Positions 33,894 to 55,297 of a stretch of DNA of 64,000 nt are shown here, one piece after another. The stretch comes from Candidatus Magasanikiibacteriota bacterium. GTDB taxonomy: Bacteria > Patescibacteriota > Patescibacteriia > Magasanikbacterales > UBA922. The stretch lies in the NCBI GenBank assembly GCA_041665025.1, contig JBAYJP010000002.1, positions 64,691 through 128,690 of the forward strand, in the 5' to 3' direction. The position numbers were made by a program, and so were the translations under genes. The notes beneath the pieces were generated by a model. The model had not been told where the DNA came from. It worked only from the letters and a program-made list of their open reading frames with translations, and did no database searches. Every line of letters begins with the position of its first letter. Positions within the stretch are counted from its first letter, which is position 1.

Positions 33894-33904
33894 ACAGACA
33901 AAGA

Positions 33905-37107: not shown

Positions 37108-37110
37108 CAT

Positions 37111-39491: not shown

Positions 39492-40607
39492 ATGAAAACG
39501 ACAAAACTTCTTATTATTTCTTTATCAGCAGGCTCTGGACATGTACAAGCGGCCAAAGCAATAAAAGAAACAGCAGATACCTACCCACAGGTAGTCTGTG
39601 AACATATCGACATGGCCGGCTATATCACAAGAGTATTCAAGGCATCGGCTATCTCCTCATACCACGTTATTATTGAACATTTTCCAAAACTTTGGAAATC
39701 ATTTTTTGATATTACAGACAATGAAAATTTTCTCAATGCATATTACACCATTACAAAATATTTAAAACTTATTAATTCTTTCCCTCTATACAAAAAAATA
39801 CAACAATTTAATCCTGACTATATCTTGTGCTCTCATTTCCTGGCCGCTGATGTACTACTCAACACAACATCGAGCAACAGACCCCGTGTACCTGTATCTG
39901 TTCTCGTGACAGATTATGGACTCCACCCCTTGTGGGCAGTATCGGGCGTGTCGCATTATTTTGTAGCAACCTCGTCAATCGAACAAACCCTAAAAAAAAA
40001 CCACCACGTACCAAAATCTCATATCACCGTAAGTGGTATTCCTGTCTACCGCTCATTTTATGAAAATTCCAAAAAAGAAGATCTACGGACCAGATATCAT
40101 TTACCATTAAAAAACCAGACCATACTCCTACTGTCCGGAGGGCAAGGGTTGATGGAAACTGATACATTGGCAAAAAAAATATTTTCATATTCAAAACCTG
40201 TTACCCTTATTGCCATCGCAGGAAAAAATGAAGAACTGCGGCAAAATCTGCTTAGACTTTCTGCACCTCCCCATATCAATTACCGTGTCATTGGATGGAC
40301 ACATGATATGGCGTCATACATAAAGTTGTCTGATGTCGTGATAAGCAAACCCGGCGGATTGACCACAACCGAATGCATGATCTCGGGAGTACCACTTATC
40401 GCAGTTAATCCTATTCCTGGGCAAGAAGAATTTAATGTCGAATTTATACAACAAAAAAACCTTGGCGCGCTTGCCAAGGATAGTGAAAGCCTCTTGAAAT
40501 TATTGCATCATTTTCTTGAAAAGAAAGAGCCTCTCGAGTCCGAAAAAATCCAGCCTGCTTCAGATATAATACTCAAAAAAATTATTACCGCACCCACGGC
40601 GCATTGA
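39492..40607 (+). CDS. GT28-family glycosyltransferase (MGDG synthase / UgtP-like diacylglycerol glycosyltransferase)
   Basis: N-terminal 'LLIISLSAGSGHVQAAKAIKE' and 'VLVTDYGLHPLWAVSGVSHYFVAT', hallmarks of the MGDG-synthase/UgtP family. Confidence 0.6.
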   Translation: MKTTKLLIISLSAGSGHVQAAKAIKETADTYPQVVCEHIDMAGYITRVFKASAISSYHVIIEHFPKLWKSFFDITDNENFLNAYYTITKYLKLINSFPLYKKIQQFNPDYILCSHFLAADVLLNTTSSNRPRVPVSVLVTDYGLHPLWAVSGVSHYFVATSSIEQTLKKNHHVPKSHITVSGIPVYRSFYENSKKEDLRTRYHLPLKNQTILLLSGGQGLMETDTLAKKIFSYSKPVTLIAIAGKNEELRQNLLRLSAPPHINYRVIGWTHDMASYIKLSDVVISKPGGLTTTECMISGVPLIAVNPIPGQEEFNVEFIQQKNLGALAKDSESLLKLLHHFLEKKEPLESEKIQPASDIILKKIITAPTAH

Positions 40608-41145
40608 CTTCCGGAGGTGTAGTGCTCTGTTCAAGCGGATCTCGCTGATAGAATTGCTCCTGACTTGGAAGCACATCAAACTCAAAAAATGAACCATAGG
40701 GATTTTCATTTCCTTTTCCATACAAATACCACACAAACCCAGCAATACTATACGAGGTAAGCATAATAAATACGCCCAAAACTCCATAAAATATTATTTG
40801 CTTTCCCTTTTTTATTTTTTCTTCTTCTCCGCTTGAGGTCATGACCAAATATCCTCCGTATATCGTGTACACAGTGGCAAGTGTTCCTACAATACTCAAA
40901 AATATTTTGATTATCTGCGCCACAATCAGACGCGGATCGCGAGGAGAACCCAAATTTGCACCCTGCTCTCCGGCAAATGCGTCCAATTGCCTGAACATAT
41001 CTGAACCTGCGTATGGCACGGTCCCATTTTTTTGTTCATCTGTCCCTTCTGCGTATGTAAATTGGGCAATGAAAAAAATTCCTGTAATTATTCCACTCAG
41101 GAGAATTAGAGATGCTATTTTTTTTCTATGTGTTAGCTTCAACAT
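40585..41145 (-). CDS. VirB2/TrbC-like 'T4SS-pilin' family protein (paralog P1, with C-terminal extension)
   Basis: N-terminal TM, then TM-'IYGGYLVMTSSGEEEKIKKGKQII'-TM core shared by the whole array, plus an extra ~50-aa tail. Confidence 0.6.
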   Translation of the reverse strand: MLKLTHRKKIASLILLSGIITGIFFIAQFTYAEGTDEQKNGTVPYAGSDMFRQLDAFAGEQGANLGSPRDPRLIVAQIIKIFLSIVGTLATVYTIYGGYLVMTSSGEEEKIKKGKQIIFYGVLGVFIMLTSYSIAGFVWYLYGKGNENPYGSFFEFDVLPSQEQFYQRDPLEQSTTPPEVNAPWVR

Positions 41146-41151
41146 AGTATA

Positions 41152-41601
41152 TTACTCAAAAAACTGAGGTTGCGAGGCAGACGGAATAATTCCTGATGCC
41201 TGCGTTATTCTGCTCATCACAAAATTGGTAATACTGTATGCCGACAAAATCACCAAAATCCCTATGACTGCTCCCTGCATGGTTTTGCGTGCTTTGGAAA
41301 TTTTTTCTTCTTCACCATGTGAAGTAATAAACCAATATCCTGAAATAAAAAACAGAAATACAAATACAGTACCAAGCAACCCAAGTCCTATTCGAACAAA
41401 CCGCATGGCTGTCAGACGAGGATCCACCGCTCCCTCTCCATAGCCAGCTTGCAGGGTACCTGCCTGAAGCTGTCGAATTACCTCGTTTGTCGTATCTTCA
41501 TTCACCGACTGGGCAAAAACGTTTGAATACACAGAAAAAATGCCCACAAAACAGATGAGAAAGACAAAGGCCAAGATGTATAATTTTCTATAATATTTCA
41601 T
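41152..41601 (-). CDS. VirB2/TrbC-like 'T4SS-pilin' family protein (P2)
   Basis: Signal/TM N-terminus, core 'FFISGYWFITSHGEEEKISKARKTMQGAVIGILVILSAYSITNFV'. Confidence 0.65.
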   Translation of the reverse strand: MKYYRKLYILAFVFLICFVGIFSVYSNVFAQSVNEDTTNEVIRQLQAGTLQAGYGEGAVDPRLTAMRFVRIGLGLLGTVFVFLFFISGYWFITSHGEEEKISKARKTMQGAVIGILVILSAYSITNFVMSRITQASGIIPSASQPQFFE

Positions 41602-41610
41602 AGCATGCTT

Positions 41611-42021
41611 TTATTCTATACCTGCACCCGGGGCTGTCTGTGGCGTAGTGCCTGCCAATATGCGCGGTACGATAAATGCCGTGATACTATATGCGGCCAA
41701 TACAATGATAAGTCCAATTATCGCCGCTTTGATAATCTCTTTTGATTTGTCTATTTGTGCTTCTTCTCCACGGGCAACCATCCACAAATACCCTCCATAT
41801 ATCATAAGCACGGTAAACAAGACGCCCATGATTGAAAGAGCGATGCTAATAATAGTACCAATATTGGCTGCCAAGGTCGTATCATTTGTCTCAGGATTAA
41901 ACCCGGCTTCAGCTCCGGCGTTTTTTACATAACTATTTATCCCGAAATCAAGGGCAAGAGACATTGAGGGGACTGCAAGCAACACAAGGGCAAAAATAAA
42001 TGTAATTATCTTTTTGAACAT
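41611..42021 (-). CDS. VirB2/TrbC-like 'T4SS-pilin' family protein (P3)
   Basis: Core 'MIYGGYLWMVARGEEAQIDKSKEIIKAAIIGLIIVLAAYSITAFIV'. Confidence 0.7.
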   Translation of the reverse strand: MFKKIITFIFALVLLAVPSMSLALDFGINSYVKNAGAEAGFNPETNDTTLAANIGTIISIALSIMGVLFTVLMIYGGYLWMVARGEEAQIDKSKEIIKAAIIGLIIVLAAYSITAFIVPRILAGTTPQTAPGAGIE

Positions 42022-42029
42022 ACTATGCT

Positions 42030-42140
42030 TAAAGATTAAAAGATTGCAAGATTAAAAGATTGAAAGATTAAAAGATTTTGAAATACTGTAATTTGGTATC
42101 CAATCACAATCTTATAATCTTTCAATCTTTTAGTCTTTCT
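42030..42140. repeat. family-4 heptamer inverted repeat pair ('AAGATTAAAAGATT' / 'AATCTTTCAATCTT'), no gene enclosed
   Basis: 'aaagattaaaagattgcaagattaaaagattgaaagattaaaagatt...aatcacaatcttataatctttcaatcttttagtcttt'. Confidence 0.75.
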
Positions 42141-42205
42141 CTTTTGTATCTATGACCTTAAAACTAAGGACGACGTCTGGAAGATATCACCCCCCATGCA
42201 ACGCG

Positions 42206-42586
42206 CTACGTCACCCCAAACTTACTCGTCACAAATATGGTGATCGCGTAGGCACTCACCGTAATAAACAACCCAATAATGGCCGCATAAATAATATTTC
42301 GTGCGCTTTCAATTTTGCTCTCTTCACCGCGCGCAGTCATCCATAGTACGCCCGCATACACCATAAGTGCCAAAAAGATAATACCTACCAAACTCAAAAC
42401 ACCCTTTATCAATCCGCCTACCAATAATCCAATATCACTTTGTGTAGTACCTGCTTTACCAGCAACAGTGGTCAAATTTGGACCTGAACTCTTTACACCT
42501 TGCGCAACTACAGATGAAACCAATGCCGTACACATGAATACACTGAGTAAGATAACTGAAATTATTTTTTTGAACATACACTTCAA
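42206..42586 (-). CDS. VirB2/TrbC-like 'T4SS-pilin' family protein (P4)
   Basis: Core 'MVYAGVLWMTARGEESKIESARNIIYAAIIGLFITVSAYAITIFV'. Confidence 0.7.
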   Translation of the reverse strand: MKCMFKKIISVILLSVFMCTALVSSVVAQGVKSSGPNLTTVAGKAGTTQSDIGLLVGGLIKGVLSLVGIIFLALMVYAGVLWMTARGEESKIESARNIIYAAIIGLFITVSAYAITIFVTSKFGVT

Positions 42587-42609
42587 TTATTCTATAATAT
42601 TTTTTATTT

Positions 42610-43296
42610 TCAACGATTTTCCTTGCACTGTTCGGCTTCCTGTCCTTCAAAAAATTGCCATGTCCCTTCCCCCTCTGGTCCATATAGACAATCATCTATT
42701 CCTTCTCTGACAGCTTCACCAAAATACTTGCAATCCGCATATGTTGTTATGCGCCATGCCTTAGTTTCAACACCCAAAAGAAGTTCCTCGGAACACGCGC
42801 CTGACTCTCCTCCGCTCGCCTTCACCCAGTCATAACAGCATCCTGTTGGTTCATTGCCTACTTGGCTTGGGTTATCGGTAATCGAAAGACCTCCACCTGC
42901 CTGGTTATCTATAATTCTCTGCTGGACAAATGTGGTAATCGCATACGAACTTACCAAAATAATCATACCTATGGTCGAAGCAATAAGTGTTTTCCGCGCT
43001 TTGTCCACTTTGTCTTCTTCTCCACGCGCAGTCATCCACATAAGACCCGCATATACCATAAGGCCAAAAAATATAATTCCCGCTATACTCAGCGCATATT
43101 TTATTAACGTACCAATGTATGTGCCAACATCGCCCTGGTCAATGCCTGACTTTTGCACTACGGTGCTTAGTGCCGAGTCTGCGTCGCTCAAGGTTTTTTT
43201 GGCATAAATTTTTTGTTGCCCATACCCCAAAACTCCCGTCAACACCAATATTAACATTACAATAATTTTATAACGAAAAAAATACATACTCTCCAT
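42610..43296 (-). CDS. VirB2/TrbC-like 'T4SS-pilin' family protein with Cys-rich C-terminal ectodomain (P5)
   Basis: Core 'MVYAGLMWMTARGEEDKVDKARKTLIASTIGMIILVSSYAITTFV' followed by a ~90-aa Cys-rich tail (CCYDW..C..C..C..C). Confidence 0.65.
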   Translation of the reverse strand: MESMYFFRYKIIVMLILVLTGVLGYGQQKIYAKKTLSDADSALSTVVQKSGIDQGDVGTYIGTLIKYALSIAGIIFFGLMVYAGLMWMTARGEEDKVDKARKTLIASTIGMIILVSSYAITTFVQQRIIDNQAGGGLSITDNPSQVGNEPTGCCYDWVKASGGESGACSEELLLGVETKAWRITTYADCKYFGEAVREGIDDCLYGPEGEGTWQFFEGQEAEQCKENR

Positions 43297-43299
43297 AAT

Positions 43300-44142
43300 T
43301 TAGTTACACTGATCTGTAGCGCCACAAATATCAGTGCCGTCTAGCATACAGGTAGTCCATACTACAATTTCTCCAGGTAGATCACATTCAGGTGGTTTGT
43401 CTGTTACACAATTTGAACCGGCACATGCTATTCTTATTTCTTCTTCGGTTCCTCCAGTAGTAGCCCCTCCTACACAAGCACAATAAGTTGTTCCCTCAGA
43501 TGCAGTACAGAAATCTGGAGCTGTACAAGGAGGAGGAGTACTACCACTTGGTGTACAACATTTATCATCTCCGGGGCATCCTCCTGCCGTAGTCTCAGAA
43601 TAAGCGTCCCATGCCTTACATTTTGTTGCATCGCCCCAATTAGTCGCACCTGCTGCTGTCTGAGATTGGCAAGTAAACGTGACCCAACCTGGTGGTTGAG
43701 TAAACACTGCTTTTAATCCTTCTGTTTTTCCACACAAACTTGCGGTTGGGGTTGTCCCTCCACCACCACCATCGCCCGTACCGCCTACACTCTTAAACAC
43801 AAAATTCGTAATGGCGTATGCTGACATGACGATAATAATACCAATAATCGCGGCAAACACGGTATTCAAAGCTTTTTTTGCTTGTTCTTCATTTCCTCTG
43901 TCTGTCATCCACAATATCCCGCCGTAAATCATGAGTACAAAAAAGACAACCGAGACCATGGATAATGCCGTGCCTATCACATTACCTATAATTTCTGGAA
44001 GATTGCCCTTTTTCAAATTTGCAGCACCTGCGGCAGTGTCTAGGCCATAATTACTATCTTGGGCAAAAACACCAACAGCGGACATAATTCCTACTGAGAT
44101 AATAATTCCCAAAAACAGATAGAGGAATTTTTTGGACAACAT
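43300..44142 (-). CDS. VirB2/TrbC-like 'T4SS-pilin' family protein with Gly linker and Cys-rich tail (P6)
   Basis: Core 'MIYGGILWMTDRGNEEQAKKALNTVFAAIIGIIIVMSAYAITNFV', linker 'GGTGDGGGGGTTPT', 16-Cys C-terminal domain. Confidence 0.65.
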   Translation of the reverse strand: MLSKKFLYLFLGIIISVGIMSAVGVFAQDSNYGLDTAAGAANLKKGNLPEIIGNVIGTALSMVSVVFFVLMIYGGILWMTDRGNEEQAKKALNTVFAAIIGIIIVMSAYAITNFVFKSVGGTGDGGGGGTTPTASLCGKTEGLKAVFTQPPGWVTFTCQSQTAAGATNWGDATKCKAWDAYSETTAGGCPGDDKCCTPSGSTPPPCTAPDFCTASEGTTYCACVGGATTGGTEEEIRIACAGSNCVTDKPPECDLPGEIVVWTTCMLDGTDICGATDQCN

Positions 44143-44149
44143 ATAGTAA

Positions 44150-44200
44150 AATTATTCTAATTGTTCTAATTATACTAATTATTCTAAATAAAACTTAATA
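44150..44200. repeat. 'TAATTAGAATAATT' heptamer repeat arm (family 3)
   Basis: 'aattattctaattgttctaattatactaattattctaaa', inverted partner at 44598..44655; together they bracket the four-helix-bundle gene. Confidence 0.75.
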
Positions 44201-44202
44201 AA

Positions 44203-44592
44203 CTAACTATTTTTATTTTTAACCTTGTGATAAATTGCATTAAATATCAGATGCAATTGGCGAGCTTCATCCCACAAAACTCTAGCTTCATTTTTTAGAT
44301 CTTCATCTCCAAAGCTCACAGCAAGCATTCTCAAAAAATGTTTTACCTCTCGAGTTTCTTTTTTACAAATACCTATTTTATGCACGAAATCTTTAGATGA
44401 TTCTGCATCGTCTGCCTCGCAATAATTCGCCCCTATACTCGTACCTGCCGCAACAAATTGTGGTATCAGCCGCTCTGTCACTTTATTTACTAAAATTTTC
44501 TTAGCAAATTTGACAACATGTTCTCCAAACTTCGCTGTTCTCTCTTCGAGGTCATATTTTCTTAATGTTGTGCCTGTTTCCTCCTTATTCAT
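44203..44592 (-). CDS. four-helix-bundle protein (23S rRNA intervening-sequence protein family)
   Basis: 129 aa. 'LIPQFVAAGTSIGANYCEADDAESSKDFVHKIGICKKETREVKHFLRML' matches the family's conserved 'S.GANI.EA......DF.....IA.KE..E..YWL'-type core. Second copy of the type at 33929. Confidence 0.6.
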   Translation of the reverse strand: MNKEETGTTLRKYDLEERTAKFGEHVVKFAKKILVNKVTERLIPQFVAAGTSIGANYCEADDAESSKDFVHKIGICKKETREVKHFLRMLAVSFGDEDLKNEARVLWDEARQLHLIFNAIYHKVKNKNS

Positions 44593-44597
44593 TCCTT

Positions 44598-44655
44598 AGG
44601 TTAATTAGAACAATTAGTATAATTAGAATAATTTACGTAATTAGGTGAATTCAAA
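44598..44655. repeat. 'TTAGAATAATTAG' heptamer repeat arm (family 3, inverted)
   Basis: 'ttaggttaattagaacaattagtataattagaataatttacgtaattaggtgaattc'. Confidence 0.75.
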
Positions 44656-44662
44656 ATATTTT

Positions 44663-45082
44663 CTACGAACTCCACCCGCTTTGTAACTCTGTTGCATCCA
44701 TGAGATTCTCTAAGACAAAATTTGAAATTGCAAAAGCCATAAGTATAATGACTATACCAATAACGGCCGCAAAAATAATTTTGCGGGCTTCTCCAGCCTT
44801 TTCTTCATTTCCGCCGGCAGTCATCCAGAGGAAACCTGCATAAATAATAAGGACAGTAGCAATAATACCCAATAATCCAAGCGACGCATTGATAATTTTG
44901 GCAGTCAGAATGCGCGGATCGCGAGCACTAAGTCCTGTATCTGCAACACAACCAAGTCCCAATGGATCGGTAGGATCATCACACTCGTCTACCATCTGGG
45001 CAGAAACCAAAAGTGGGCTTTGCAAAAAACCTACAGCTAAAACAAAACAAAGGATAATGAAAGACAATACCTTTTTGGACAT
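44663..45082 (-). CDS. VirB2/TrbC-like 'T4SS-pilin' family protein (P7)
   Basis: Core 'IIYAGFLWMTAGGNEEKAGEARKIIFAAVIGIVIILMAFAISNFV'. Start trimmed to MSKKVLSF because the ORF-track N-terminus is translation of the family-3 repeat. Confidence 0.65.
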   Translation of the reverse strand: MSKKVLSFIILCFVLAVGFLQSPLLVSAQMVDECDDPTDPLGLGCVADTGLSARDPRILTAKIINASLGLLGIIATVLIIYAGFLWMTAGGNEEKAGEARKIIFAAVIGIVIILMAFAISNFVLENLMDATELQSGWSS

Positions 45083-45094
45083 ATGAAAATGAAT

Positions 45095-45200
45095 TATTCT
45101 AATTAACCTAATTGTTCTAATTATTCTAAACAATTTCTAATATGGTTTTTAATTTAGGGGTTTGTTTAGAATAATTAGTATAATTAGAATAATTTTTGTA
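45095..45200. repeat. family-3 heptamer inverted repeat pair
   Basis: 'aattattctaattaacctaattgttctaattattctaaa' ... 'tttagaataattagtataattagaataatt', a ~40-bp-arm hairpin with a 25-nt loop. Confidence 0.8.
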
Positions 45201-45259
45201 TGGATATTCAAAATCTGAGGGCAAGGAGCATTTTTTCCCCTTGCCCTCTATAATCCAGA

Positions 45260-45703
45260 TTATAAAGTATATGTTGTGTCACTAGTCGTACCCGTAGCTC
45301 TACCAAGCTGTATCAAAGCAAACCGAGCAATTGCCCATGCTGCCAAGATTACTGCCATACCAATAATTCCCGAGAAGATCCATTTGCGAGCTTCTCCCAC
45401 TTTTTCTTCATTTCCGCCAGCAGTCATCCATTTGAATCCGCCGATAAGGACAATAACAACTGCGATAATACCGAGCATGCTCAAAGCAATGTTGATAATT
45501 TTGGTCGCAGTAACACGTAAATCTGCCTTTCCTAAGGCAATCCCGGTGCTATCTGCATCTCCGTCTTGAATTACATCAATTCCAAATGGATCGTCTCCAC
45601 TAGCTGCTCCAACAAAAGATGGTGAAAGCACTAAACCAAACACTGCGATTGCAAGTATGGTTAAAACTGTTCTGTATTTTGTCAATTTGTACAATAAGTT
45701 CAT
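45260..45703 (-). CDS. VirB2/TrbC-like 'T4SS-pilin' family protein (P8)
   Basis: Core 'LIGGFKWMTAGGNEEKVGEARKWIFSGIIGMAVILAAWAIARF'. Start set at MNLLYKL, preceded by GGAGGTGA (one of the few SD-like sites). Confidence 0.65.
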   Translation of the reverse strand: MNLLYKLTKYRTVLTILAIAVFGLVLSPSFVGAASGDDPFGIDVIQDGDADSTGIALGKADLRVTATKIINIALSMLGIIAVVIVLIGGFKWMTAGGNEEKVGEARKWIFSGIIGMAVILAAWAIARFALIQLGRATGTTSDTTYTL

Positions 45704-45762
45704 GTGTCTCACCTCCCTTCTAAAAGAAGGATTATTTTTTATTAATCCAATAAATTTATAGT

Positions 45763-46728
45763 TTATTGACTCACAGCAGCGCCTCTTACTGTCTTTTCTG
45801 TTGTCCATTCACAAGTGTCAAATTCAGGAAATCCAGCCCGTGATTGTTCACATTCACCTTGCGTATTAAATTCAACACGCACTTCCCAATTTCCCCTCGA
45901 TTCATTTTGAAAACCACAATAACAATTTTTTATTTGTTCAACGCATTCTTCTCGTATTTCATATTCTGTTCCTGTACAAGGACCCCCACCACCTGGGATA
46001 CATTGATTGTCTATCAAACAAAACGTAGTTTGTTGGACAGGGGCTGTATACCCCACGCCAAGCCCTTTTAAAATTAAATCAATTATAGCATAACTGCTAA
46101 AAATAACAACAATTCCCAACACTGCCCAGGTGATTGCCATGGTGCCTTTTTTTATTTGTTCTGCATTGCCAGCAGAAGTAAGCCACATGAAACCTCCATA
46201 CACGACAACAAGCAGAGTGACAGCCCCCAAAATTCCCATTCCAACTCGTATGGCCCCGCCAAAAACTTCCAAAGCATTATTTGCGTTTACTGGATTTGTA
46301 AGAGACACACAACCAGGGGGAGTACATGGTCCGCCATATTGCTGTATAAGAGAATTTCTCAAAGATTCTGGATCAATCGGACTTCCCGCACTACCTCCAC
46401 CTCCAGCAGCAGCACCATCTCCAGCAGCAGCACCATCTCCAGCAGCAGCAGCACCATCTCCAGCAGCACCACCACCAACCTGTTCAATACAAAGTCCTTC
46501 TTTACATGCTGAACCAGCCACACATTCTATATCTCCTTCCTCTTCACCACAAGACCCGCCTTCAAAAATACATATGCTACCAGTGTCACCATCAACACAG
46601 CTAAAATTTGGTAATGTACAACTTTCATCACTAAGACAAGTCCTGTCTTCAGATCTCACAATTTCTCTATAACTAAAAATTGTTGCGACTGTCATTACTA
46701 TAATCGCTGTTTTCAAAAAAAATTTCAT
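45763..46728 (-). CDS. VirB2/TrbC-like 'T4SS-pilin' family protein with Cys-rich N-domain and Gly/Ala repeat (P9)
   Basis: Core 'VVYGGFMWLTSAGNAEQIKKGTMAITWAVLGIVVIFSSYAI'. N-terminal Cys-rich domain, 'GDGAAAAGDGAAAGDGAAAGGGGS' encoded by a 15-nt tandem DNA repeat, second Cys-rich module C-terminal. Confidence 0.65.
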   Translation of the reverse strand: MKFFLKTAIIVMTVATIFSYREIVRSEDRTCLSDESCTLPNFSCVDGDTGSICIFEGGSCGEEEGDIECVAGSACKEGLCIEQVGGGAAGDGAAAAGDGAAAGDGAAAGGGGSAGSPIDPESLRNSLIQQYGGPCTPPGCVSLTNPVNANNALEVFGGAIRVGMGILGAVTLLVVVYGGFMWLTSAGNAEQIKKGTMAITWAVLGIVVIFSSYAIIDLILKGLGVGYTAPVQQTTFCLIDNQCIPGGGGPCTGTEYEIREECVEQIKNCYCGFQNESRGNWEVRVEFNTQGECEQSRAGFPEFDTCEWTTEKTVRGAAVSQ

Positions 46729-46745
46729 AAGTTCATAAGCTATAA

Positions 46746-47963
46746 TTAAAATCTAAAATCAGATTTTACTTGCAACATCTTCAATAAGAAATCAACCAAA
46801 ATATACGCGCTAAACGTGACAACAAGACCCATAGTTGCCGACGTAAGCATGCTTTTGCCTTTTTCAACTTTTTCGCTATTGCCAAAAGACAACACCCACG
46901 TAAATCCTCCATAGACAAACATAACAAATGCAAATCCTGCAGCACCTCCCATAAATATTTTCCCCGCGTTTATCATAAGTTGAAGCAGATCATTAATATT
47001 TCTGCACTGTCCACTATATGCACAATCCGGCAAGAGTCCTGATGCGTCTTCGGGGACGGGATATTGTTGAGAAATAGATTGTTCAACTGCAACGCTGTCA
47101 ATAGGTTTGCATTCTCCTCCCTCTTTTCCAGTAACAGTGCTCCAAGCACAGGTGTCTTTTAATTTTTCACGTTCACAAATGCTTTTGGGAAATTTTGTAC
47201 ACAAACTACCATCTCTAGCAGACACACAACTTGATTCATTCCAAATACACAATACATTGGAATCACAGTCAGTTTTTTCAAAACCAGAACAAGCTAATTT
47301 GGATATGGTGATTGAAAAATCTTTCAAGCCATATTTTGCTGGTGTACCACTCGTATATGCAAGAAAAGAAAATTTTACTTCTTTTGGCAACGAAACATCA
47401 GATATACTTCCCAAATATTCAGTTGGATTAAAACTAAAAACTATATTCGCAGGATTCCCGCTTGCCTGCAAAGGTCCAGTATAACCCGATATTTTATCAC
47501 AATTGAGACACAAAAGTGTAAAATTATATGAACCACTTTTTGTAGCTTTCACCATAACATTATTTAACATCTCACCAGGCGTGACTTCAGTTGACCCTAC
47601 ATATGTTATTATGGAACTATCTGGAGCTCCACTTAAATTCATGACTGACTGGATACATCTGGGTTCCTGGGTACATCCCACTTCTCTGCCCTTCAAAGGT
47701 GTGTTACATATTCGACCTGGATTTGGAGTATTCGGATCAAGAACCTCGCAAGGTCCTGTATGCATATAATCGGCCCTACACGAACCTTCAGGTTTAGGGC
47801 TACAAGAGACTGCTGTTTCCCCTAAATATCCCGCACAACATCTGCCACTCAAGTCTGCTGCAAAAATAAAATTTGGATTTAACAAATAAATGGATAAACC
47901 CAAAGTAAGAAAAAAAAATATCACTTTTTTTATTTTTGATGCACTTACAAGTAATTTTTTCAT
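46746..47963 (-). CDS. VirB2/TrbC-like 'T4SS-pilin' family protein with large Cys-rich ectodomain (P10)
   Basis: 405 aa: signal peptide, ~330-aa Cys-rich domain, then core 'FVYGGFTWVLSFGNSEKVEKGKSMLTSATMGLVVTFSAYILVDFLLK'. Confidence 0.6.
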   Translation of the reverse strand: MKKLLVSASKIKKVIFFFLTLGLSIYLLNPNFIFAADLSGRCCAGYLGETAVSCSPKPEGSCRADYMHTGPCEVLDPNTPNPGRICNTPLKGREVGCTQEPRCIQSVMNLSGAPDSSIITYVGSTEVTPGEMLNNVMVKATKSGSYNFTLLCLNCDKISGYTGPLQASGNPANIVFSFNPTEYLGSISDVSLPKEVKFSFLAYTSGTPAKYGLKDFSITISKLACSGFEKTDCDSNVLCIWNESSCVSARDGSLCTKFPKSICEREKLKDTCAWSTVTGKEGGECKPIDSVAVEQSISQQYPVPEDASGLLPDCAYSGQCRNINDLLQLMINAGKIFMGGAAGFAFVMFVYGGFTWVLSFGNSEKVEKGKSMLTSATMGLVVTFSAYILVDFLLKMLQVKSDFRF

Positions 47964-47972
47964 ATACCTTTC

Positions 47973-49346
47973 TTACATCGTCTGCTGTACGCGTGCAGCA
48001 GTATTAATAATTAATTTTCTATCTCTGTCAATTGGTTCTTCTCTATCTCCATACGGCTTTAGAAGTTCACTTACCAAAGTCTTCATCGCATCACGCGCAG
48101 TATCTATATCACGGCCCGTATACCAATTTTCTGCATACAACGCTTGGGTCGCAAACGGTTCCATATTTTCATCTTTTTGCTGTTCAGTAATTTGAGTACG
48201 CAAAGGACTCGGCCTAAACATGGCATCGGTATATATCTTCACATTTGCAGGTGATGTAATATAACGCACAAAATCCCACGCTTCGTTTTGGTGCTTTGAC
48301 TTGAGAGCGACTGATTCAACCCAATAATTTGCAACATTGCGCGGGCTGTCTGGATTGAGCTGAAACACCGGCAATATTTTCATATTCATTTGTGGAGCGC
48401 GCGCTTTTATGCGCGGATAGTCGTATGCGTATCCAAAATAAAATACGACTTTACCCCGTACAAATGCGTCTAATGCATTTTCCATTTTTTCATTCCACGA
48501 ATAAACTTTTTTGGTAGGACGGGCAAAGTCAGTATAAAAATCCAACGCGCGAAATGTCGGATGCGTCCTATCTGAAAGGTCAACACCATCGGCAAAACGA
48601 ACATATCCACCCTGTGACATGTCTACTCCGCTTTGAAGCATAAATAATGATAGAATATCGAAACTAGCATCAATATTATTGCCTGTTCCGAGCGCTGCGC
48701 CGGACTGCACAATATCTCCACGTGAATTAAATTTGGTTGTTTTTTCTATAATTTTTACAAATTCATCCCATGTCTTGGGCGCTTCAGAAATTCCTGCGCG
48801 ATCAAGCAAATCTTGATTATAATACACACCCAAAGAATCCATGGCTATAGGCAAGCCATATATTTTGTTATCAAAAACGACATCCTGATACACGGTCTTC
48901 ACATATCCATCTTTTACTTCTTTTACGGAAGGCAGTGGTATGGTATCAATAATAACTTCTTTTTCATCAGTATATTTATTTGTGACAACTATCCGTGCCA
49001 TTTTCACTGATGCGGGCATAGGAGCCAAACGATTTTTTTGTTTCTTAAGCCACTGTACATGCATCGACACGATATCTGGCCCTACGTCATCAGCAAGAGC
49101 AGTCGTAAATAATCGATCAAATTCTTCATAACGCACTTGGCGTATATTAATTTTTACATAGGGACGAGCTTTTTCATATTCAGCAGCCATTTTTTGCAAT
49201 TGGGATACGTCATCAAAGATAGTCCAATATTCAAGCTGGACGCGTTTGAGCGCGGCCTGTTGTTCGGCATTGAGACCCTTACAACCCAAGCCAGTCGTAA
49301 GAAGCAAAATTGTGAGTATAAAAATAGATATTAGCCTCTTGTACAT
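47973..49346 (-). CDS. extracellular solute-binding lipoprotein (ABC transporter SBP, family 1, sugar-type)
   Basis: Lipobox 'LLLTTGLGCKG' and SBP_bac_1-like fold. Inserted inside the pilin array. Confidence 0.65.
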   Translation of the reverse strand: MYKRLISIFILTILLLTTGLGCKGLNAEQQAALKRVQLEYWTIFDDVSQLQKMAAEYEKARPYVKINIRQVRYEEFDRLFTTALADDVGPDIVSMHVQWLKKQKNRLAPMPASVKMARIVVTNKYTDEKEVIIDTIPLPSVKEVKDGYVKTVYQDVVFDNKIYGLPIAMDSLGVYYNQDLLDRAGISEAPKTWDEFVKIIEKTTKFNSRGDIVQSGAALGTGNNIDASFDILSLFMLQSGVDMSQGGYVRFADGVDLSDRTHPTFRALDFYTDFARPTKKVYSWNEKMENALDAFVRGKVVFYFGYAYDYPRIKARAPQMNMKILPVFQLNPDSPRNVANYWVESVALKSKHQNEAWDFVRYITSPANVKIYTDAMFRPSPLRTQITEQQKDENMEPFATQALYAENWYTGRDIDTARDAMKTLVSELLKPYGDREEPIDRDRKLIINTAARVQQTM

Positions 49347-49349
49347 AAT

Positions 49350-49470
49350 TTATTTTAAAAACAATTATTCTAATTAACCTAATTGTTCTAATTATTCTAA
49401 AAATAACTGGCTCTACTTCCCTATTAACTACCTTTTTTTAGATTCAACAATATTTTAGAATAATTAGTAC
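49350..49470. repeat. family-3 heptamer inverted repeat pair
   Basis: 'aattattctaattaacctaattgttctaattattctaaaaa ... ttttagaataattagtacaattaaaataatt'. Confidence 0.8.
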
Positions 49471-49552
49471 AATTAAAATAATTTGGGAACAACAAACTGA
49501 AAACAAATTTCATTATAAAATACACCTTAATTCTTTGCGGTTGATATCCGTA

Positions 49553-50410
49553 CTATCTAAAAGCTTCAAACACAATATCTACCACTGCATAACTTGCAAA
49601 TATAAGCACAATGCCAAGCGAGGACCAAATAAATATTTGCATTGCCTTAGCACCTTTTTCTGCGTTACCACCCGCAGTCATCCAGAGCACACCGCCATAT
49701 ACAATCATAGCTAGTGCAATAGATCCCATGATGCCCATTGCGGCTTTGATAACTCTGCCTATGAGTTCTGGCAAATAAATATCTCCTAATGTATTGAGAA
49801 CCGAGACATCGGGGATAATAAGACCAGCTTCCTCCTCACCCTGTGTAGGTGTTGTAGGTACGGCTGTCGAAGAATCATATTTATCTGCTTTAGGCATGCA
49901 TGACACAAGCAAATTTACTACGGGCGAACCGACAAAACTCTGCCTAATATTAAAATTACAATCTGACAGTACGCGCGCCTCTGAAAAAGCTGGTGGTAAA
50001 GTTATATCACTTGATATTTTTCCATTTAGTATCTGAGATAAGGTAAATTGGTAACGAACCTGAACTGAAGTCGCAGCATCTACTCTGAATCCTTCTCCAT
50101 CTACCTGTAATCGACATGCACAAGAATTATCCGAATCACTACCTATAATCGCAAGGCCATCTGAAACAGTTACCATATTAGGAGTCTGGCCAACTTTGAG
50201 ACAAATACCCTGATGACACCTTCTCCCTCCCGGACATGGAGCGCCCGGATCACACAGTGCTGTTTCACAGTTCATGTCGTCTGTGCATATTTCGTCACTG
50301 CCGCAGTCATTATCGTTTATACAATCTGCCTTGGCCTCTGCAGGAAAAAAATTAAGCACGGTCTGAAACATGATAAGAAGTACCACAAAAATATATTTCT
50401 TATACCTCAT
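49553..50410 (-). CDS. VirB2/TrbC-like 'T4SS-pilin' family protein with Cys-rich N-domain (P11)
   Basis: Signal peptide, Cys-rich N-domain (CINDNDCGSDEICTDDMNCETALC..), core 'MIVYGGVLWMTAGGNAEKGAKAMQIFIWSSLGIVLIFASYAVVDIV'. Confidence 0.65.
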   Translation of the reverse strand: MRYKKYIFVVLLIMFQTVLNFFPAEAKADCINDNDCGSDEICTDDMNCETALCDPGAPCPGGRRCHQGICLKVGQTPNMVTVSDGLAIIGSDSDNSCACRLQVDGEGFRVDAATSVQVRYQFTLSQILNGKISSDITLPPAFSEARVLSDCNFNIRQSFVGSPVVNLLVSCMPKADKYDSSTAVPTTPTQGEEEAGLIIPDVSVLNTLGDIYLPELIGRVIKAAMGIMGSIALAMIVYGGVLWMTAGGNAEKGAKAMQIFIWSSLGIVLIFASYAVVDIVFEAFR

Positions 50411-50429
50411 ATGTCCTGAAAGAAAAAAT

Positions 50430-51281
50430 TTATTTTTTTGAAAAATATAATGCTGTCTTCAACAAACTCTCGGGGGTCCCTGTATCAAAATACTTGCCCT
50501 CATATTCATACGCATACATTGTTTCATTGTGCGCCATCGCGTTCACGGCATCAGCCACCCATATCTCTCCGGCTCTACTCTTTTTTGTTTTTTCCAAATA
50601 AGACCAAATCTTTGGAGTAAAGATGTAGCGCATACCACCCACAATAAAACCTTCGGGTGAAACCTCTTCTATGGAGGGTTTTTCCTTAATGCAGTCTACT
50701 TCAAAAGCATACTTTGATAATTTTGAATTTTGAATTTTGAATTTTGAATTCTTTGTATAAACATTTCCATACTTCGTCATCGCTTGTTTATCTTTCAACC
50801 GCTGTACCCCAATAACTGGCACGCCTGTCGCTTCGAAAACCTCTTTTACTTGTTTTACCGCAGGAATTTTTGAATCGATAATGCTATCACCATCTGAAAA
50901 TGCAAATGGTCTATTGCCACAAAGTTTTTTGGCGCACAACAATGCATGGCCATTACCAAGCGGTTTGTTTTGATACGTATAAAAAAATCTTACCTTTTTT
51001 GTAAGATCAATAAGAGACTGTATGCGATCAAGCTTATTTTGTTTTTTGAGTGTGGCTTCTAATTTTTTATCACGCGTGAAATGATCTTTTATTGCTTGCT
51101 TTGTCGGACTCGTAACCAATATGATATCTCGTATACCGCTCTGCGCCATCTCTTCTACAATATACTGAATAACCGGCTTATCAAGCACAGGCAACATCTC
51201 TTTTGGTACAGCTTTTGTCGCCGGCAAAAAACGGGTTCCAAGCCCTGCGACTGTGATGACTCCCGTACGGACGCTTTGCAT
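50430..51281 (-). CDS. galU: UTP--glucose-1-phosphate uridylyltransferase-like sugar nucleotidyltransferase
   Basis: 'GVITVAGLGTRFLPATKAVPKEMLPVLDKPVIQYIVEE'. Contains an in-frame (ttttgaa)x4 microsatellite at 50712-50750. Confidence 0.75.
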   Translation of the reverse strand: MQSVRTGVITVAGLGTRFLPATKAVPKEMLPVLDKPVIQYIVEEMAQSGIRDIILVTSPTKQAIKDHFTRDKKLEATLKKQNKLDRIQSLIDLTKKVRFFYTYQNKPLGNGHALLCAKKLCGNRPFAFSDGDSIIDSKIPAVKQVKEVFEATGVPVIGVQRLKDKQAMTKYGNVYTKNSKFKIQNSKLSKYAFEVDCIKEKPSIEEVSPEGFIVGGMRYIFTPKIWSYLEKTKKSRAGEIWVADAVNAMAHNETMYAYEYEGKYFDTGTPESLLKTALYFSKK

Positions 51282-51410
51282 ATATTCTATGATTTTAATA
51301 CATCAGCAGTATAACAAATATTTTATGTTTATGCTACATTTTTGGGGCGATAGGTTAAGAAACCAGACTCCGGAAAATAATCTCCGGTTTCCTAGCCTAT
51401 CGCCCATCAC

Positions 51411-52793: not shown

Positions 52794-52837
52794 AACAATA
52801 TTTATTGGTATTGGGTTAGGAAACCAGAAACCTTGCG

Positions 52838-53455: not shown

Positions 53456-53456
53456 A

Positions 53457-55262: not shown

Positions 55263-55297
55263 GTGACAGGCTATTTTATTGCACCTACTAATGTAAC

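What the first reader, a model, noticed from the sequence alone, without database searches (positions are those of the whole stretch)
40585..50410. Ten-kb array of 11 divergent VirB2/TrbC-like pilin paralogs with hypervariable Cys-rich ectodomains
All are on the minus strand. Each protein carries the same core: hydrophobic helix, loop 'GG.LWMT..GN.E...KA...I', then a second helix. This matches the conjugative-pilin-like 'T4SS pilin' family described in CPR bacteria (established family; my assignment is by motif only). The paralogs differ greatly in added domains: sizes run from 126 to 405 aa, with Cys-rich modules N- or C-terminal, Gly linkers and a GDGAAA tandem repeat. No VirB4/VirD4/VirB6 genes are in the window, so these are not part of a local conjugation operon. 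Such diversification suggests a surface-display or adhesin repertoire, plausibly for host-cell attachment. One more paralog sits at 59100-59561. The array is laced with heptamer inverted-repeat elements (42030, 44150, 44598, 45095, 49350), which could drive recombination between paralogs.
Basis: partly seen in the sequence, partly recalled or inferred. Interest (0 to 1): 0.8.

Follow-up and report, generated by a model that had tools for sequence, protein, structure and literature searches.

The report
Conserved VirB2-like pilin gene array
This stretch of a Candidatus Magasanikbacteria (Patescibacteria/CPR) genome carries eleven old, highly diverged copies of a conjugative-pilin-like membrane protein, several fused to cysteine-rich outer domains; such arrays are already described in these bacteria, so this is a large, well-preserved example rather than a new kind of system.

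Summary
Eleven minus-strand genes in 40585-50410, plus one at 59100-59561, all match Pfam PF18895 (T4SS_pilin); 11 of 12 pass the curated cut-off. Each has a signal peptide and two hydrophobic helices joined by a short charged loop. Cysteines lie almost only in N- or C-terminal extensions.

The link to VirB2/TrbC is remote but real. Close homologues pass both Pfam models on the same residues. A profile-profile comparison gives 77% probability, and reversed or shuffled controls fail.

The window comes from a Candidatus Magasanikbacteria MAG. Pilin arrays of 2-11 genes in Patescibacteria are already published (McLean 2020, Wang 2023, Quinonero-Coronel 2025).

What I add:
- The array is not a fast-turnover cassette. 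Two relatives (GalU 61-64% identical) keep 11 genes in the same order, largely one-to-one.
- Only the outer domains diverge. The P06 tail is nearly an orphan.
- A GalU / solute-binding lipoprotein / large pilin / small pilins module recurs across Patescibacteria, away from virB4.
- The "heptamer inverted repeats" are 8-9-nt tandem-repeat hairpins. They belong to a window-wide intergenic repeat system, and nothing indicates they drive recombination.

Function (a surface filament or display platform for host contact) is inferred, not shown.

The parts
40585..41145 (-). P01, pilin paralogue, 186 aa, no Cys, conserved C-terminal tail (QFY..DPLEQ)
   Evidence: PF18895 33.7 bits. Positional orthologues in L003 and L004.
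41152..41601 (-). P02, short pilin paralogue, 149 aa
   Evidence: PF18895 27.1 bits. Core hmmsearch E 5e-32.
41611..42021 (-). P03, minimal pilin paralogue, 136 aa; the copy modelled with AlphaFold2
   Evidence: PF18895 32.5 bits. AF2 helical hairpin 48-82/87-125, pLDDT above 90 in the hairpin. 90 homologues, nearly all PF18895.
42031..42138 (.). Intergenic hairpin made of inverted tandem 8-mers (AAAGATTA), ending 9 nt before the P03 start
   Evidence: TRF. RNA fold -37.7 kcal/mol, z -7.5. The same 8-mer family occurs at five other places in the window.
42206..42577 (-). P04, short pilin paralogue, 123 aa
   Evidence: PF18895 24.2 bits, below the gathering score. In-house core HMM E 4e-31. Called as 123 aa in the ENA contig.
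42610..43287 (-). P05, pilin with 96-aa C-terminal domain, 6 Cys (GCCYDWV...)
   Evidence: PF18895 28.7 bits. C-domain conserved in L003 and L004, 36-37% identity over 98% of the length.
43300..44142 (-). P06, pilin with Gly linker and 157-aa C-terminal tail, 16 Cys
   Evidence: PF18895 32.5 bits. Tail nearly orphan in 5.8e9 clusters and 1.84e9 representatives. Orthologues are only 173-186 aa.
44148..44644 (-). Four-helix-bundle (23S_rRNA_IVP) gene 44203-44592, bracketed by 42-nt inverted arms of tandem 9-mers; an insertion absent from related arrays
   Evidence: PF05635 40.1 bits and TIGR02436 57.1 bits. Arms 44150-44191 / 44601-44642, 83% complementary. P07 and P06 orthologues lie next to each other in L003 and L004.
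44663..45082 (-). P07, short pilin paralogue, 139 aa
   Evidence: PF18895 33.8 bits. Weak TrbC hit E 0.055. NF045849 Mycoplasma-ICE pilin-like family 36.6 bits.
45092..45248 (.). Intergenic 9-mer hairpin (45092-45196) plus a GC-rich terminator-like stem-loop (45217-45248) just after the P08 stop
   Evidence: Arms 33 nt, 88% complementary; perfect 10-bp stem. RNA fold z -7.3. Sequence read.
45260..45703 (-). P08, short pilin paralogue, 147 aa
   Evidence: PF18895 38.9 bits. Core 66-67% identical to positional orthologues, against 54% to the nearest paralogue.
45763..46728 (-). P09, pilin with N-terminal Cys-rich module (10 Cys), GDGAAA repeat linker and C-terminal Cys-rich module (8 Cys)
   Evidence: PF18895 26.9 bits. 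TRF. One repeat unit is missing in the otherwise identical ENA contig.
46746..47963 (-). P10, 'large pilin', 405 aa: 319-aa ectodomain (19 Cys) with an Ig-like beta-sandwich and a conserved membrane-proximal Cys module
   Evidence: PF18895 33.6 bits. Family of 26 homologues. AF2 pLDDT 71. Foldseek finds Ig-like sandwiches.
47973..49346 (-). Solute-binding lipoprotein (SBP_bac_1/8, lipobox LGC), 9 nt upstream of P10; conserved partner of pilin arrays
   Evidence: PF13416 96 bits and PF01547 92 bits. The order GalU, SBP, pilins is seen in at least 16 loci.
49363..49483 (.). Intergenic 9-mer hairpin between P11 and the SBP gene
   Evidence: RNA fold z -3.6. Relatives have different tandem repeats at the same position.
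49553..50410 (-). P11, pilin with 206-aa N-terminal ectodomain, 12 Cys
   Evidence: PF18895 38.1 bits. Only the core aligns with orthologues, 52-57% identity.
50430..51281 (-). GalU-like UTP-glucose-1-phosphate uridylyltransferase, conserved upstream neighbour of the module
   Evidence: PF00483 94 bits; TIGR01099 249.6 bits, below its cut-off of 326.8. Used as the synteny anchor.
59100..59561 (-). P12, dispersed twelfth pilin paralogue, 153 aa, next to rpsF-ssb-rpsR
   Evidence: PF18895 34.3 bits. Gene context.

Best explanation
This is a chromosomal array of twelve anciently duplicated VirB2-like (Pfam PF18895) pilin genes in a Candidatus Magasanikbacteria genome.

Topology. Each product is exported by Sec. 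It inserts as a two-helix hairpin with the short charged loop inside and both termini outside. Any N- or C-terminal extension, whether disulfide-rich or Ig-like, therefore faces the exterior.

Division of labour. The short copies (P02, P03, P04, P07, P08, P12) are candidate bulk subunits. The extended copies (P05, P06, P09, P10, P11) are candidate minor or adhesive subunits.

Assembly. Together with a conserved solute-binding lipoprotein, they most likely form a heteromeric surface filament or membrane display platform. A T4SS encoded elsewhere in the genome would assemble it, and it would serve contact with a host cell.

Evolution. Each paralogue holds a fixed position and a fixed type of extension across related genomes, which points to subfunctionalised parts rather than interchangeable variants. 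Only the exposed domains evolve fast.

What is shown: family membership, the remote VirB2 relationship, the predicted topology, synteny and orthology, and ectodomain divergence.

What is inferred: polymerisation, dependence on a T4SS, and host-contact function.
For: - Family: PF18895 hits for 12 of 12 copies, 11 at or above the gathering score.
- Pfam bridge to VirB2/TrbC: homologues P0033 and P0043 (44-46% identical to P03) pass the gathering scores of both PF18895 and PF04956 on the same residues.
- Profile bridge to VirB2/TrbC: hhalign of 91 cores against 8 annotated VirB2/TrbC proteins gives probability 76.8% and E 2e-5 over 65 columns. Both helices are in register and the G..WM..GR motif is shared. 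Reversed controls give 0.2-0.3%; 40 column shuffles reach a maximum score of 20.2, against 31.8 observed.
- Conjugation link in another monoderm: P07 scores 36.6 bits to the Mycoplasma-ICE 'pilin-like conjugal transfer protein' family.
- Structure and topology: AF2 gives a confident helical hairpin. All copies have a signal-like N-terminus and two hydrophobic helices, and Cys is confined to the extensions.
- Ectodomain: the P10 ectodomain is an Ig-like sandwich, as in adhesins.
- Orthology: collinear with L003 and L004.
- Synteny: the GalU-SBP-pilin module recurs in Kerfeldbacteria, Saccharibacteria and Kazan genomes.
- Distal T4SS in the closest relative: it encodes VirB4 twice, plus TrsD, T4CP and VirB1, far from its array (Table S3 of PMC12102498).
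- Precedent: a pilin array is essential for epibiotic growth of Southlakia epibionticum (PMC10633639; PMC12857230).
Against: - No T4SS gene lies within the window or about 8 kb beyond it. Whether this MAG has virB4 at all was not testable.
- No window protein reaches the TrbC/VirB2 gathering score; the best is 14.1 bits.
- The 91-core profile finds no solved pilin in the PDB by sequence.
- Fold searches are non-discriminating for a helical hairpin.
- Ectodomains of 150-320 aa on every subunit would be hard to pack in a VirB2-type helical filament.
- No pilus of this type has been seen in any Patescibacterium.
- The conserved neighbours (GalU, SBP, glycosyltransferases) would fit an envelope-related role equally well.
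Confidence: 0.55

Rival explanations
1. The two-helix core is only a membrane anchor. The proteins never polymerise and do not need a T4SS. They form a stable set of surface-displayed envelope proteins, with receptor, adhesin or envelope-organising roles. They would work together with the co-conserved solute-binding lipoprotein and with UDP-glucose-dependent envelope glycosylation.
For: - The array is unlinked from any T4SS gene here, and in L032 and L007.
- The GalU-SBP-pilin neighbourhood is conserved in at least 16 loci.
- Flanking genes are glycosyltransferases: MGDG_synth at 39492-40607 and PMT_2 at 29613-31466.
- Bulky ectodomains sit on 5 of 12 copies.
- The fold is a generic hairpin.
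Against: - The core is far better conserved than a mere anchor would need: near-invariant G, W and M residues and the GNEEK..KA loop persist across classes.
- There is specific profile similarity to VirB2/TrbC and to a Mycoplasma ICE pilin-like protein.
- In 1135 of 1948 assemblies such pilin genes do lie near virB4 (PMC12102498).
- Half the copies have no ectodomain to display.
Confidence: 0.27
2. The array is a fast-diversifying adhesin or antigenic-variation repertoire, whose members are shuffled by recombination at the inverted-repeat elements.
For: - Ectodomains are very different between paralogues and between orthologues.
- The P06 tail is nearly an orphan.
- One GDGAAA unit differs between two assemblies of the same population.
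- Published speculation draws an analogy with Bartonella and Anaplasma VirB2 paralogues (PMC12102498).
Against: - Number, order and extension type are conserved in genomes whose GalU is only 61-64% identical. For 9 of 11 genes the core's best match is the positional counterpart in both relatives.
- No long, near-identical DNA tracts link the paralogues; cores are 60-76% identical over 63-116 nt.
- There are no silent or truncated cassettes.
- The repeat elements sit in intergenic DNA all over the window: 22 of 33 arrays fall in the 9.8% that is intergenic, p 4e-15. They come in several sequence families and form hairpins at operon boundaries.
Confidence: 0.06
3. The genes encode small Sec-exported subunits of a secreted toxin or effector complex. 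This is the pertussis-toxin analogy proposed for the TM7x array.
For: All copies have signal peptides and are arranged in tandem. The analogy was proposed in PMC7427843.
Against: - Each mature protein keeps two strongly hydrophobic helices, with Kyte-Doolittle 19-residue means up to 3.0. That fits an integral membrane or filament protein, not a soluble toxin.
- No toxin or enzyme domain was found in Pfam or NCBIfam.
- Later work re-assigned these arrays to VirB2-like pilins (PMC10633639, PMC12102498).
Confidence: 0.03

Closest known systems
VirB2-like pilin arrays of Patescibacteria (Quinonero-Coronel et al. 2025, PMC12102498; essential six-gene array of Southlakia epibionticum, Wang et al. 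2023, PMC10633639; 'secreted protein array' of TM7x, McLean et al. 2020, PMC7427843)
   Same: - Same Pfam family (PF18895).
- Tandem copies, sometimes separated by one non-pilin gene.
- Array size within the reported range of 2-11.
- Same low identity among members. The paper reports a mean of 25% and a maximum of 54%. Here the cores average 33% with a maximum of 54%.
- Same host phylum.
   Different: - This array lies away from virB4, whereas the characterised Saccharibacteria arrays sit inside the T4SS locus.
- It belongs to the ABY1/Magasanikbacteria lineage. In the held part of the survey's Table S3, the closest relative is credited with only three VirB2 genes, although all 10 of its array proteins that I tested pass PF18895.5.
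- Five members carry large Cys-rich or Ig-like ectodomains.
- It is tied to a conserved GalU / solute-binding-lipoprotein neighbourhood that is not mentioned in those papers.
TrbC/VirB2 conjugative pilins of Gram-negative T4SS (Pfam PF04956; Agrobacterium VirB2, RP4 TrbC)
   Same: - Long signal peptide.
- Two hydrophobic helices joined by a short polar loop.
- Shared G..WM..G/R motif at the end of helix 1.
- Profile-profile similarity over both helices.
- Some close homologues pass the PF04956 threshold.
   Different: - Window proteins do not reach the PF04956 threshold.
- The loop is about 5 residues longer and rich in E and K.
- The genes are not next to virB1, virB3 or virB4.
- There are many paralogues instead of one.
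- Some copies carry ectodomains of up to 319 aa, unknown in classical VirB2.
- The host is a monoderm.
Mbov_0395-family pilin-like conjugal transfer protein of Mycoplasma ICEs (NCBIfam NF045849)
   Same: A small two-helix protein in a wall-less or monoderm lineage with an MPF-FATA-like T4SS. P07 aligns over 65 of 80 profile positions at E 2.7e-9.
   Different: The score of 36.6 bits is below the curated cut-off of 40. The Mycoplasma protein is single-copy, sits within an ICE, and has no ectodomains.
Tandem VirB2 paralogues of Bartonella, Anaplasma and Rickettsia T4SS
   Same: Several diverged VirB2 copies in tandem in a host-associated bacterium. They are proposed to vary surface exposure.
   Different: In those systems the copies are thought to serve antigenic variation or host range. 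Here the copies are stable positional orthologues across genomes, each with its own architecture.

Membership tests
Pfam PF18895 T4SS_pilin (Patescibacteria VirB2-like pilin) | Whole-protein HMM score at or above the gathering score (26.6 bits) | tested here: met
   11 of 12 copies score 26.9-38.9 bits. P04 scores 24.2 bits (E 3.7e-5).
Pfam PF18895 T4SS_pilin (Patescibacteria VirB2-like pilin) | Signal peptide followed by two hydrophobic helices joined by a short charged loop | tested here: met
   Hydropathy scan of all 12 copies. AF2 model of P03 has helices 48-82 and 87-125 with pLDDT above 90.
Pfam PF18895 T4SS_pilin (Patescibacteria VirB2-like pilin) | Occurs in Patescibacteria/CPR genomes | tested here: met
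   The source protein is named Candidatus Magasanikbacteria by NCBI. The nearest GalU locus is Magasanikbacteria GW2011_GWC2_37_14.
Patescibacteria VirB2 pilin array (as defined in PMC12102498) | Two or more pilin genes in tandem or separated by a single non-pilin gene | tested here: met
   11 genes, with two single-gene interruptions.
Patescibacteria VirB2 pilin array (as defined in PMC12102498) | Members highly divergent (reported mean 25%, maximum 54% identity) | tested here: met
   Core identity mean 33%, range 20-54%. Full-length identity to P01 is 21-35%.
Patescibacteria VirB2 pilin array (as defined in PMC12102498) | Genome also encodes the T4SS ATPase VirB4 | not testable with these tools
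   Only the window and about 8 kb beyond it could be read, and none was found. The closest relative has VirB4 at genes 246 and 802, with its VirB2 rows at genes 461 and 463.
TrbC/VirB2 conjugative pilin (Pfam PF04956) | HMM score at or above the gathering score (27.9 bits) | tested here: not met
   The best window protein, P07, scores 14.1 bits (E 0.055). Homologues P0033 and P0043 do pass, at 32.7 and 29.1 bits.
TrbC/VirB2 conjugative pilin (Pfam PF04956) | Remote homology detectable by profile-profile comparison over both helices | tested here: met
   hhalign probability 76.8%, E 2.1e-5, 65 columns. Reversed and shuffled controls fail. The support is moderate, not decisive.
TrbC/VirB2 conjugative pilin (Pfam PF04956) | Structural match to solved conjugative pilins | tested here: inconclusive
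TrbC/VirB2 conjugative pilin (Pfam PF04956) | Encoded within a T4SS operon (virB1/virB3/virB4 neighbours) | tested here: not met
   Neighbours are GalU, an SBP, a glycosyltransferase and type IV pilus-like pseudopilins.
TrbC/VirB2 conjugative pilin (Pfam PF04956) | Polymerises into an extracellular pilus assembled by a T4SS | not testable with these tools
   This needs microscopy, proteomics or genetics.
NCBIfam NF045849 Mbov_0395 pilin-like conjugal transfer protein | Score at or above the curated cut-off (40 bits) | tested here: not met
   P07 scores 36.6 bits and P03 19.4 bits.
Recombination-driven antigenic-variation cassette systems (e.g. pilE/pilS type) | Near-identical recombination tracts or silent partial copies shared by paralogues | tested here: not met
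   The longest paralogue DNA matches are 63-116 nt at 60-76% identity. The only near-identical repeats are intergenic.
Recombination-driven antigenic-variation cassette systems (e.g. pilE/pilS type) | Copy number or order turnover between related genomes | tested here: not met
   11 genes in the same order in L003 and L004.
Type IV pilins (prepilin N-methylation motif, PF07963) | N-terminal G|FxxxE prepilin motif | tested here: not met
   None of the 12 copies hits PF07963. The separate neighbours at 52838-55328 do.

The most novel reading that the evidence does not exclude
The GalU / solute-binding lipoprotein / large Ig-domain pilin / small pilins module may be a distinct surface organelle locus. 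It would be conserved across Patescibacteria and genetically separate from the T4SS-linked pilin array. In Magasanikbacteria it would have expanded to eleven fixed, non-interchangeable subunits. The lipoprotein and the large pilin would form a host-glycan or nutrient-capturing tip, on a heteromeric VirB2-type filament or membrane platform.
Probability: 0.2. Interest if true: 0.7.

Novelty: new member of a known kind. Interest (0 to 1): 0.4.

Why it matters
VirB2-like pilin arrays are among the few Patescibacteria-specific features shown to be essential for the epibiotic lifestyle, and their role is unknown.

This locus shows three things. Such an array can be large, old and positionally conserved, with each copy carrying its own type of outer domain. 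It can sit far from the T4SS ATPase. It travels with a solute-binding lipoprotein and GalU across several classes.

This argues for a multi-part structure with specialised subunits rather than antigenic variation. It also gives concrete candidates to test in tractable Saccharibacteria: the large pilin and the lipoprotein.

Finally, it suggests that published surveys under-count arrays in the ABY1 class.

Tried and rejected
- Sequence profile of 91 cores against all PDB chains. No pilin was found. The only hits were artefacts to designed 'Pizza' propellers, each single stretch being insignificant.
- Pfam and NCBIfam scans of the Cys-rich extensions. No known domain was found.
- Pairwise comparison of the P11, P09 and P10 ectodomains. 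They share no similarity outside the core.
- Search for T4SS genes. I looked at the 10 largest ORFs, at precomputed Pfam hits over the whole window and about 8 kb beyond, and at hydropathy of the unannotated ORFs. None was found.
- Search for VirB4 beside the GalU-SBP-pilin module in a Saccharibacteria genome and a Kerfeldbacteria genome. None was found.
- Intrinsic-terminator and promoter scans. Promoter-like sites were not enriched (39 observed against 33 expected). Terminator-like sites were modestly enriched (16 against 7.7).
- The idea that the IVP/bAvd-like gene marks a diversity-generating retroelement. Rejected for now: precomputed Pfam hits list no reverse transcriptase in the window.
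- Walking along the 440-kb contig to find virB4. Not possible with the look-up rules.

Full report
**1. Checking the observation**

The ORF list for 39500-51500 shows eleven minus-strand ORFs at exactly the coordinates given. Two further minus-strand genes interrupt them.

All eleven, and the extra copy at 59100-59561, match Pfam PF18895 (T4SS_pilin). E-values run from 4e-5 to 9e-10. Eleven of the twelve reach the curated gathering score of 26.6 bits. The copy at 42206-42586 scores 24.2 bits.

A hydropathy scan finds an N-terminal signal-like segment and two strongly hydrophobic helices in every copy. Cysteines are absent from eleven of the twelve cores. They are concentrated in N- or C-terminal extensions:

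| Copy | Cysteines in extensions |
|---|---|
| P05 | 6 |
| P06 | 16 |
| P09 | 10 (N) + 8 (C) |
| P10 | 19 |
| P11 | 12 |

The GDGAAA repeat in P09 is real.

Gene calls on an identical public contig correct four over-extended starts. True sizes run from 123 to 405 aa.

The interrupting genes are:
- a four-helix-bundle '23S rRNA intervening sequence protein' gene at 44203-44592;
- a family-1 solute-binding protein gene at 47973-49346, with a lipobox (LGC).

**2. Source and surroundings**

The window is part of a 440-kb contig of a Candidatus Magasanikbacteria metagenome-assembled genome.

The flanks encode:
- an MGDG-synthase-type glycosyltransferase (39492-40607, plus strand);
- a GalU-like nucleotidyltransferase (50430-51281);
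- three type IV pilus-like pseudopilin genes (51411-55328).

Precomputed Pfam hits for essentially all called genes of the window, and for about 8 kb beyond its right end, show no VirB4, VirD4, VirB6, TrsD or PrgI. The largest ORFs are IleRS, GyrA and the like. No unannotated ORF is polytopic enough to be a VirB6.

**3. Is the core really VirB2-like?**

Direct evidence is weak:
- No window protein reaches the TrbC/VirB2 (PF04956) threshold. The best is P07 at 14.1 bits.
- A profile of 91 cores finds no pilin among PDB sequences.
- Fold searches with a confident AlphaFold2 hairpin model (helices 48-82 and 87-125, pLDDT above 90) return only generic helical hairpins.

Indirect evidence is better:
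- Two database homologues, 44-46% identical to P03, pass the gathering scores of both PF18895 and PF04956 on the same residues.
- I built an alignment of eight annotated VirB2/TrbC proteins from plasmids. Comparing it with the 91-core alignment gave hhalign probability 76.8% and E 2e-5. The match covers 65 columns and both helices, and aligns the VirB2 'GISWMFGR' motif with 'GGYLWMTARG'.
- Controls fail. Reversed alignments score 0.2-0.3% probability. Forty column shuffles reach at most a score of 20.2, against 31.8 observed.
- P07 scores 36.6 bits (cut-off 40) to the Mycoplasma-ICE 'pilin-like conjugal transfer protein' family.

I conclude that the proteins are secure members of PF18895. PF18895 is a remote relative of VirB2/TrbC. 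They are not members of PF04956 in the strict sense.

**4. What is already known**

This kind of array is published.
- McLean et al. 2020 described arrays of four to six small Sec-signal proteins next to T4SS genes in Saccharibacteria.
- Wang et al. 2023 re-read them as pilins and showed they are essential in Southlakia epibionticum.
- Quinonero-Coronel et al. 2025 counted 441 arrays of 2-11 pilin genes in 383 assemblies. The genes were in tandem or separated by one non-pilin gene, with mean identity 25% and maximum 54%. Pilin genes were near virB4 in 1135 of 1948 assemblies.
- A 2025 review repeats this.

The present array sits at the top of that size range. It has the same divergence: core mean 33%, maximum 54%.

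**5. Comparative analysis: what I can add**

*An old, stable array.* I used GalU as an anchor and retrieved 34 loci. The two closest are Magasanikbacteria GW2011_GWC2_37_14 (L003) and an unnamed MAG (L004), with GalU 64% and 61% identical. Both carry eleven pilin genes downstream, in the same order, with the SBP gene at the same place.

- Using cores only, nine of eleven window genes have their best match in the positional counterpart in both relatives. For eight of them that match is clearly closer than any paralogue in the window. P02 exceeds its nearest paralogue only marginally (42 against 40).
- Examples: P08 is 66-67% identical to its orthologues against 54% to its nearest paralogue. P06 is 62-63% against 45%. 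P03 is 58-60% against 45%.
- P04 and P05 are ambiguous.

The duplications are therefore older than the split of these genomes.

*Extension type is conserved per position; sequence is not*.

| Position | Extension type |
|---|---|
| P11 | N-terminal Cys-rich domain |
| P10 | large N-terminal ectodomain |
| P09 | C-terminal Cys-rich domain |
| P06 | C-terminal Cys-rich domain |
| P05 | C-terminal 'GCC.DWV' domain |
| P01 | tail ending 'QFY..DPLEQ' |

- Sequences and lengths diverge strongly. Only the core of P11 aligns with its orthologues.
- P06 is 280 aa here against 173-186 aa in the relatives.
- P09 has a lineage-specific N-terminal module.
- The P06 tail finds only itself in a word-indexed search of 5.8 billion clusters. 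An exhaustive search of 1.84 billion representatives gives four weak partial hits, and residues 78-157 remain without any relative.
- Ectodomains of different paralogues are not similar to each other.

*The large pilin.* P10 belongs to a family of 230-466-aa proteins with the pilin core at the C-terminus. They share a conserved 'PLPDCAF.G.CR.VNDLL' motif before helix 1. Its model contains an Ig-like beta-sandwich and a small Cys-rich domain. Foldseek hits to SoxYZ, cadherin, bacterial adhesin and complement MG domains are only generic.

*A conserved module away from virB4.*
- More distant Patescibacteria (Kerfeldbacteria, Saccharibacteria, Kazan; GalU 37-45% identical) keep the order GalU, SBP, one large pilin (mostly 350-450 aa), then two to four small pilins.
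- SBP followed by pilins is seen in at least 16 loci. Pilins lie downstream of GalU in 22 of 34 loci. None occurs in the non-Patescibacteria loci.
- No VirB4 lies beside this module in a complete Saccharibacteria chromosome or in a Kerfeldbacteria contig.
- I found no paper in the searchable library that links these arrays with a solute-binding protein or GalU.

*A possible under-count in the published survey.* In the part of the survey's Table S3 held here, the L003 genome lists VirB4 at genes 246 and 802, TrsD at 801, T4CP at 385 and 941, and VirB1 at 123. It lists only three VirB2 rows (genes 461, 463, 531), none flagged as near virB4. All ten array proteins of that genome that I tested pass the current PF18895 threshold. 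The array type described here was therefore probably under-counted in ABY1. In the closest relative, the T4SS ATPase genes are hundreds of genes away from the array.

**6. The inverted-repeat elements**

They exist at the five places named. They are tandem 9-mers (consensus AATTATTCT; 14 pattern matches, all inside the array, against 0.02 expected) or 8-mers (AAAGATTA; also at five other places in the window).

- Three are inverted pairs that fold into long hairpins, with z-scores of -7.3, -3.6 and -7.5. They end 8-16 nt before the start codons of P03, P07 and the SBP gene.
- The other two are the arms of a single 42-nt inverted repeat that brackets the four-helix-bundle gene.
- The same arrangement, with 37-nt arms 92% complementary, brackets the window's other such gene at 33929-34303.
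- Across the window, 22 of 33 tandem arrays of period 7-9 lie in the 9.8% of DNA that is intergenic (p 4e-15). They fall into several sequence families.
- The relatives have different tandem repeats at the same P11/SBP boundary.
- Paralogue DNA shows no long near-identical tracts.

I therefore read the elements as part of a genome-wide intergenic hairpin system that marks operon boundaries. Its function is unknown. I do not read them as drivers of recombination between pilin genes.

With the GC-rich stem-loop after P08 (45217-45248) and the terminator-like site after P01 (40460-40479), they suggest these transcription units: [P11], [SBP-P10-P09-P08], [P07], [IVP], [P06-P05-P04], [P03-P02-P01]. 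This is inference.

**7. Mechanism**

*Shown:* family membership, predicted topology, conserved order, conserved partners, and fast-evolving outer domains.

*Inferred:*
- After Sec export and signal-peptide cleavage (AXA-type sites in eleven of twelve copies), the two helices span the membrane with the charged loop inside. Both termini are then outside. This explains why extensions are tolerated at either end, and why they alone carry cysteines.
- By analogy with VirB2, the subunits would be extracted from the membrane by a T4SS encoded elsewhere and built into a filament. The short copies would be bulk subunits. The extended copies would be minor, adhesive ones.
- The co-conserved lipoprotein, whose gene ends 9 nt before P10, may act with the large pilin.

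The main rival is that the core is only an anchor, and that the set is a T4SS-independent surface display or envelope module. I give the filament/platform-for-host-contact reading about 0.55, the anchor-only reading about 0.27, the recombining-repertoire reading about 0.06, and the secreted-toxin reading about 0.03.

**8. Verdict**

The thing itself is a large, well-preserved member of a known kind.

The useful additions are:
- the positional orthology, which argues against antigenic variation;
- the per-position ectodomain architecture;
- the GalU-SBP linkage away from virB4;
- the likely under-detection of such arrays in ABY1.

Interest is moderate, at 0.4.

Noticed in passing
whole window, e.g. 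134-172, 5088-5136, 6170-6217, 27754-27790, 28547-28649, 33900-34348, 42031-42138, 53454-53480, 58095-58177, 62686-62856: Short tandem repeats of period 7-9 nt, with 3-9 copies and several sequence families (TGATACG, AAAACTC, AAAGATTA, AATTATTCT, ATATGTT and others). They are strongly concentrated in intergenic DNA: 22 of 33 arrays lie in 9.8% of the sequence, p 4e-15. They are often inverted pairs forming long hairpins and ending a few bases before start codons. Relatives have different repeats at the same boundary. Function unknown.
   Followed up: partly
33901-34347 and 44150-44642: Both four-helix-bundle (23S_rRNA_IVP / bAvd-like) genes of the window sit exactly between 37-42-nt inverted arms made of the tandem 8- or 9-mers. 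'Empty' hairpins of the same arms occur elsewhere. The copy inside the pilin array is absent from the orthologous arrays of L003 and L004. This looks like an ORF-in-a-stem-loop cassette, reminiscent of rRNA intervening sequences, and possibly mobile.
   Followed up: partly
46397-46477 (P09 linker): The ENA assembly of the same population is identical to the window over 21.2 kb, except for one 18-nt indel. That indel is one GDGAAA unit of the P09 linker (321 against 315 aa). It is either slippage polymorphism or an assembly difference.
   Followed up: yes
126-6183: Six tandem paralogues of an ABC-2-type permease (PF06182, about 262 aa each), followed by one ABC ATPase. Several are preceded by TGATACG-type repeats. 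This is a second tandem paralogue array in the window.
   Followed up: no
51411-55328: Three type IV pilus-like genes lie directly upstream of GalU and the pilin array. Two have prepilin N-methylation motifs, and one is 615 aa with CarboxypepD_reg/PEGA domains. They are syntenic in L003 with 52-65% identity. So type IV pilus minor-pilin genes and the VirB2-like array are neighbours in this lineage.
   Followed up: partly
47973-49346: The solute-binding protein has a lipoprotein signal (LGC). No ABC permease or ATPase gene is adjacent. Its gene is followed after 9 nt by the large pilin P10.
   Followed up: partly
L003 genome (GCA_000990355.1), Table S3 of PMC12102498: The published survey lists only three VirB2 genes for this genome, in the part of the table held here. 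All ten array proteins of its 11-gene array that I tested pass PF18895.5. Arrays in ABY1 may be under-counted.
   Followed up: partly
19806-23729: Three D-Ala-D-Ala-ligase/ATP-grasp-like genes (343, 333 and 343 aa), with an acetyltransferase-like gene between them, next to IleRS.
   Followed up: no
L046:3012-8332 (about 2-7 kb beyond the right end of the window): A large serine recombinase (544 aa), followed by a 1163-aa LTD/PKD-repeat surface protein. This is possibly an integrated element.
   Followed up: no
36985-38136: A tyrosine recombinase/integrase gene lies about 2.4 kb from the end of the pilin array, preceded by ATATCAC/TGATACG repeats.
   Followed up: no
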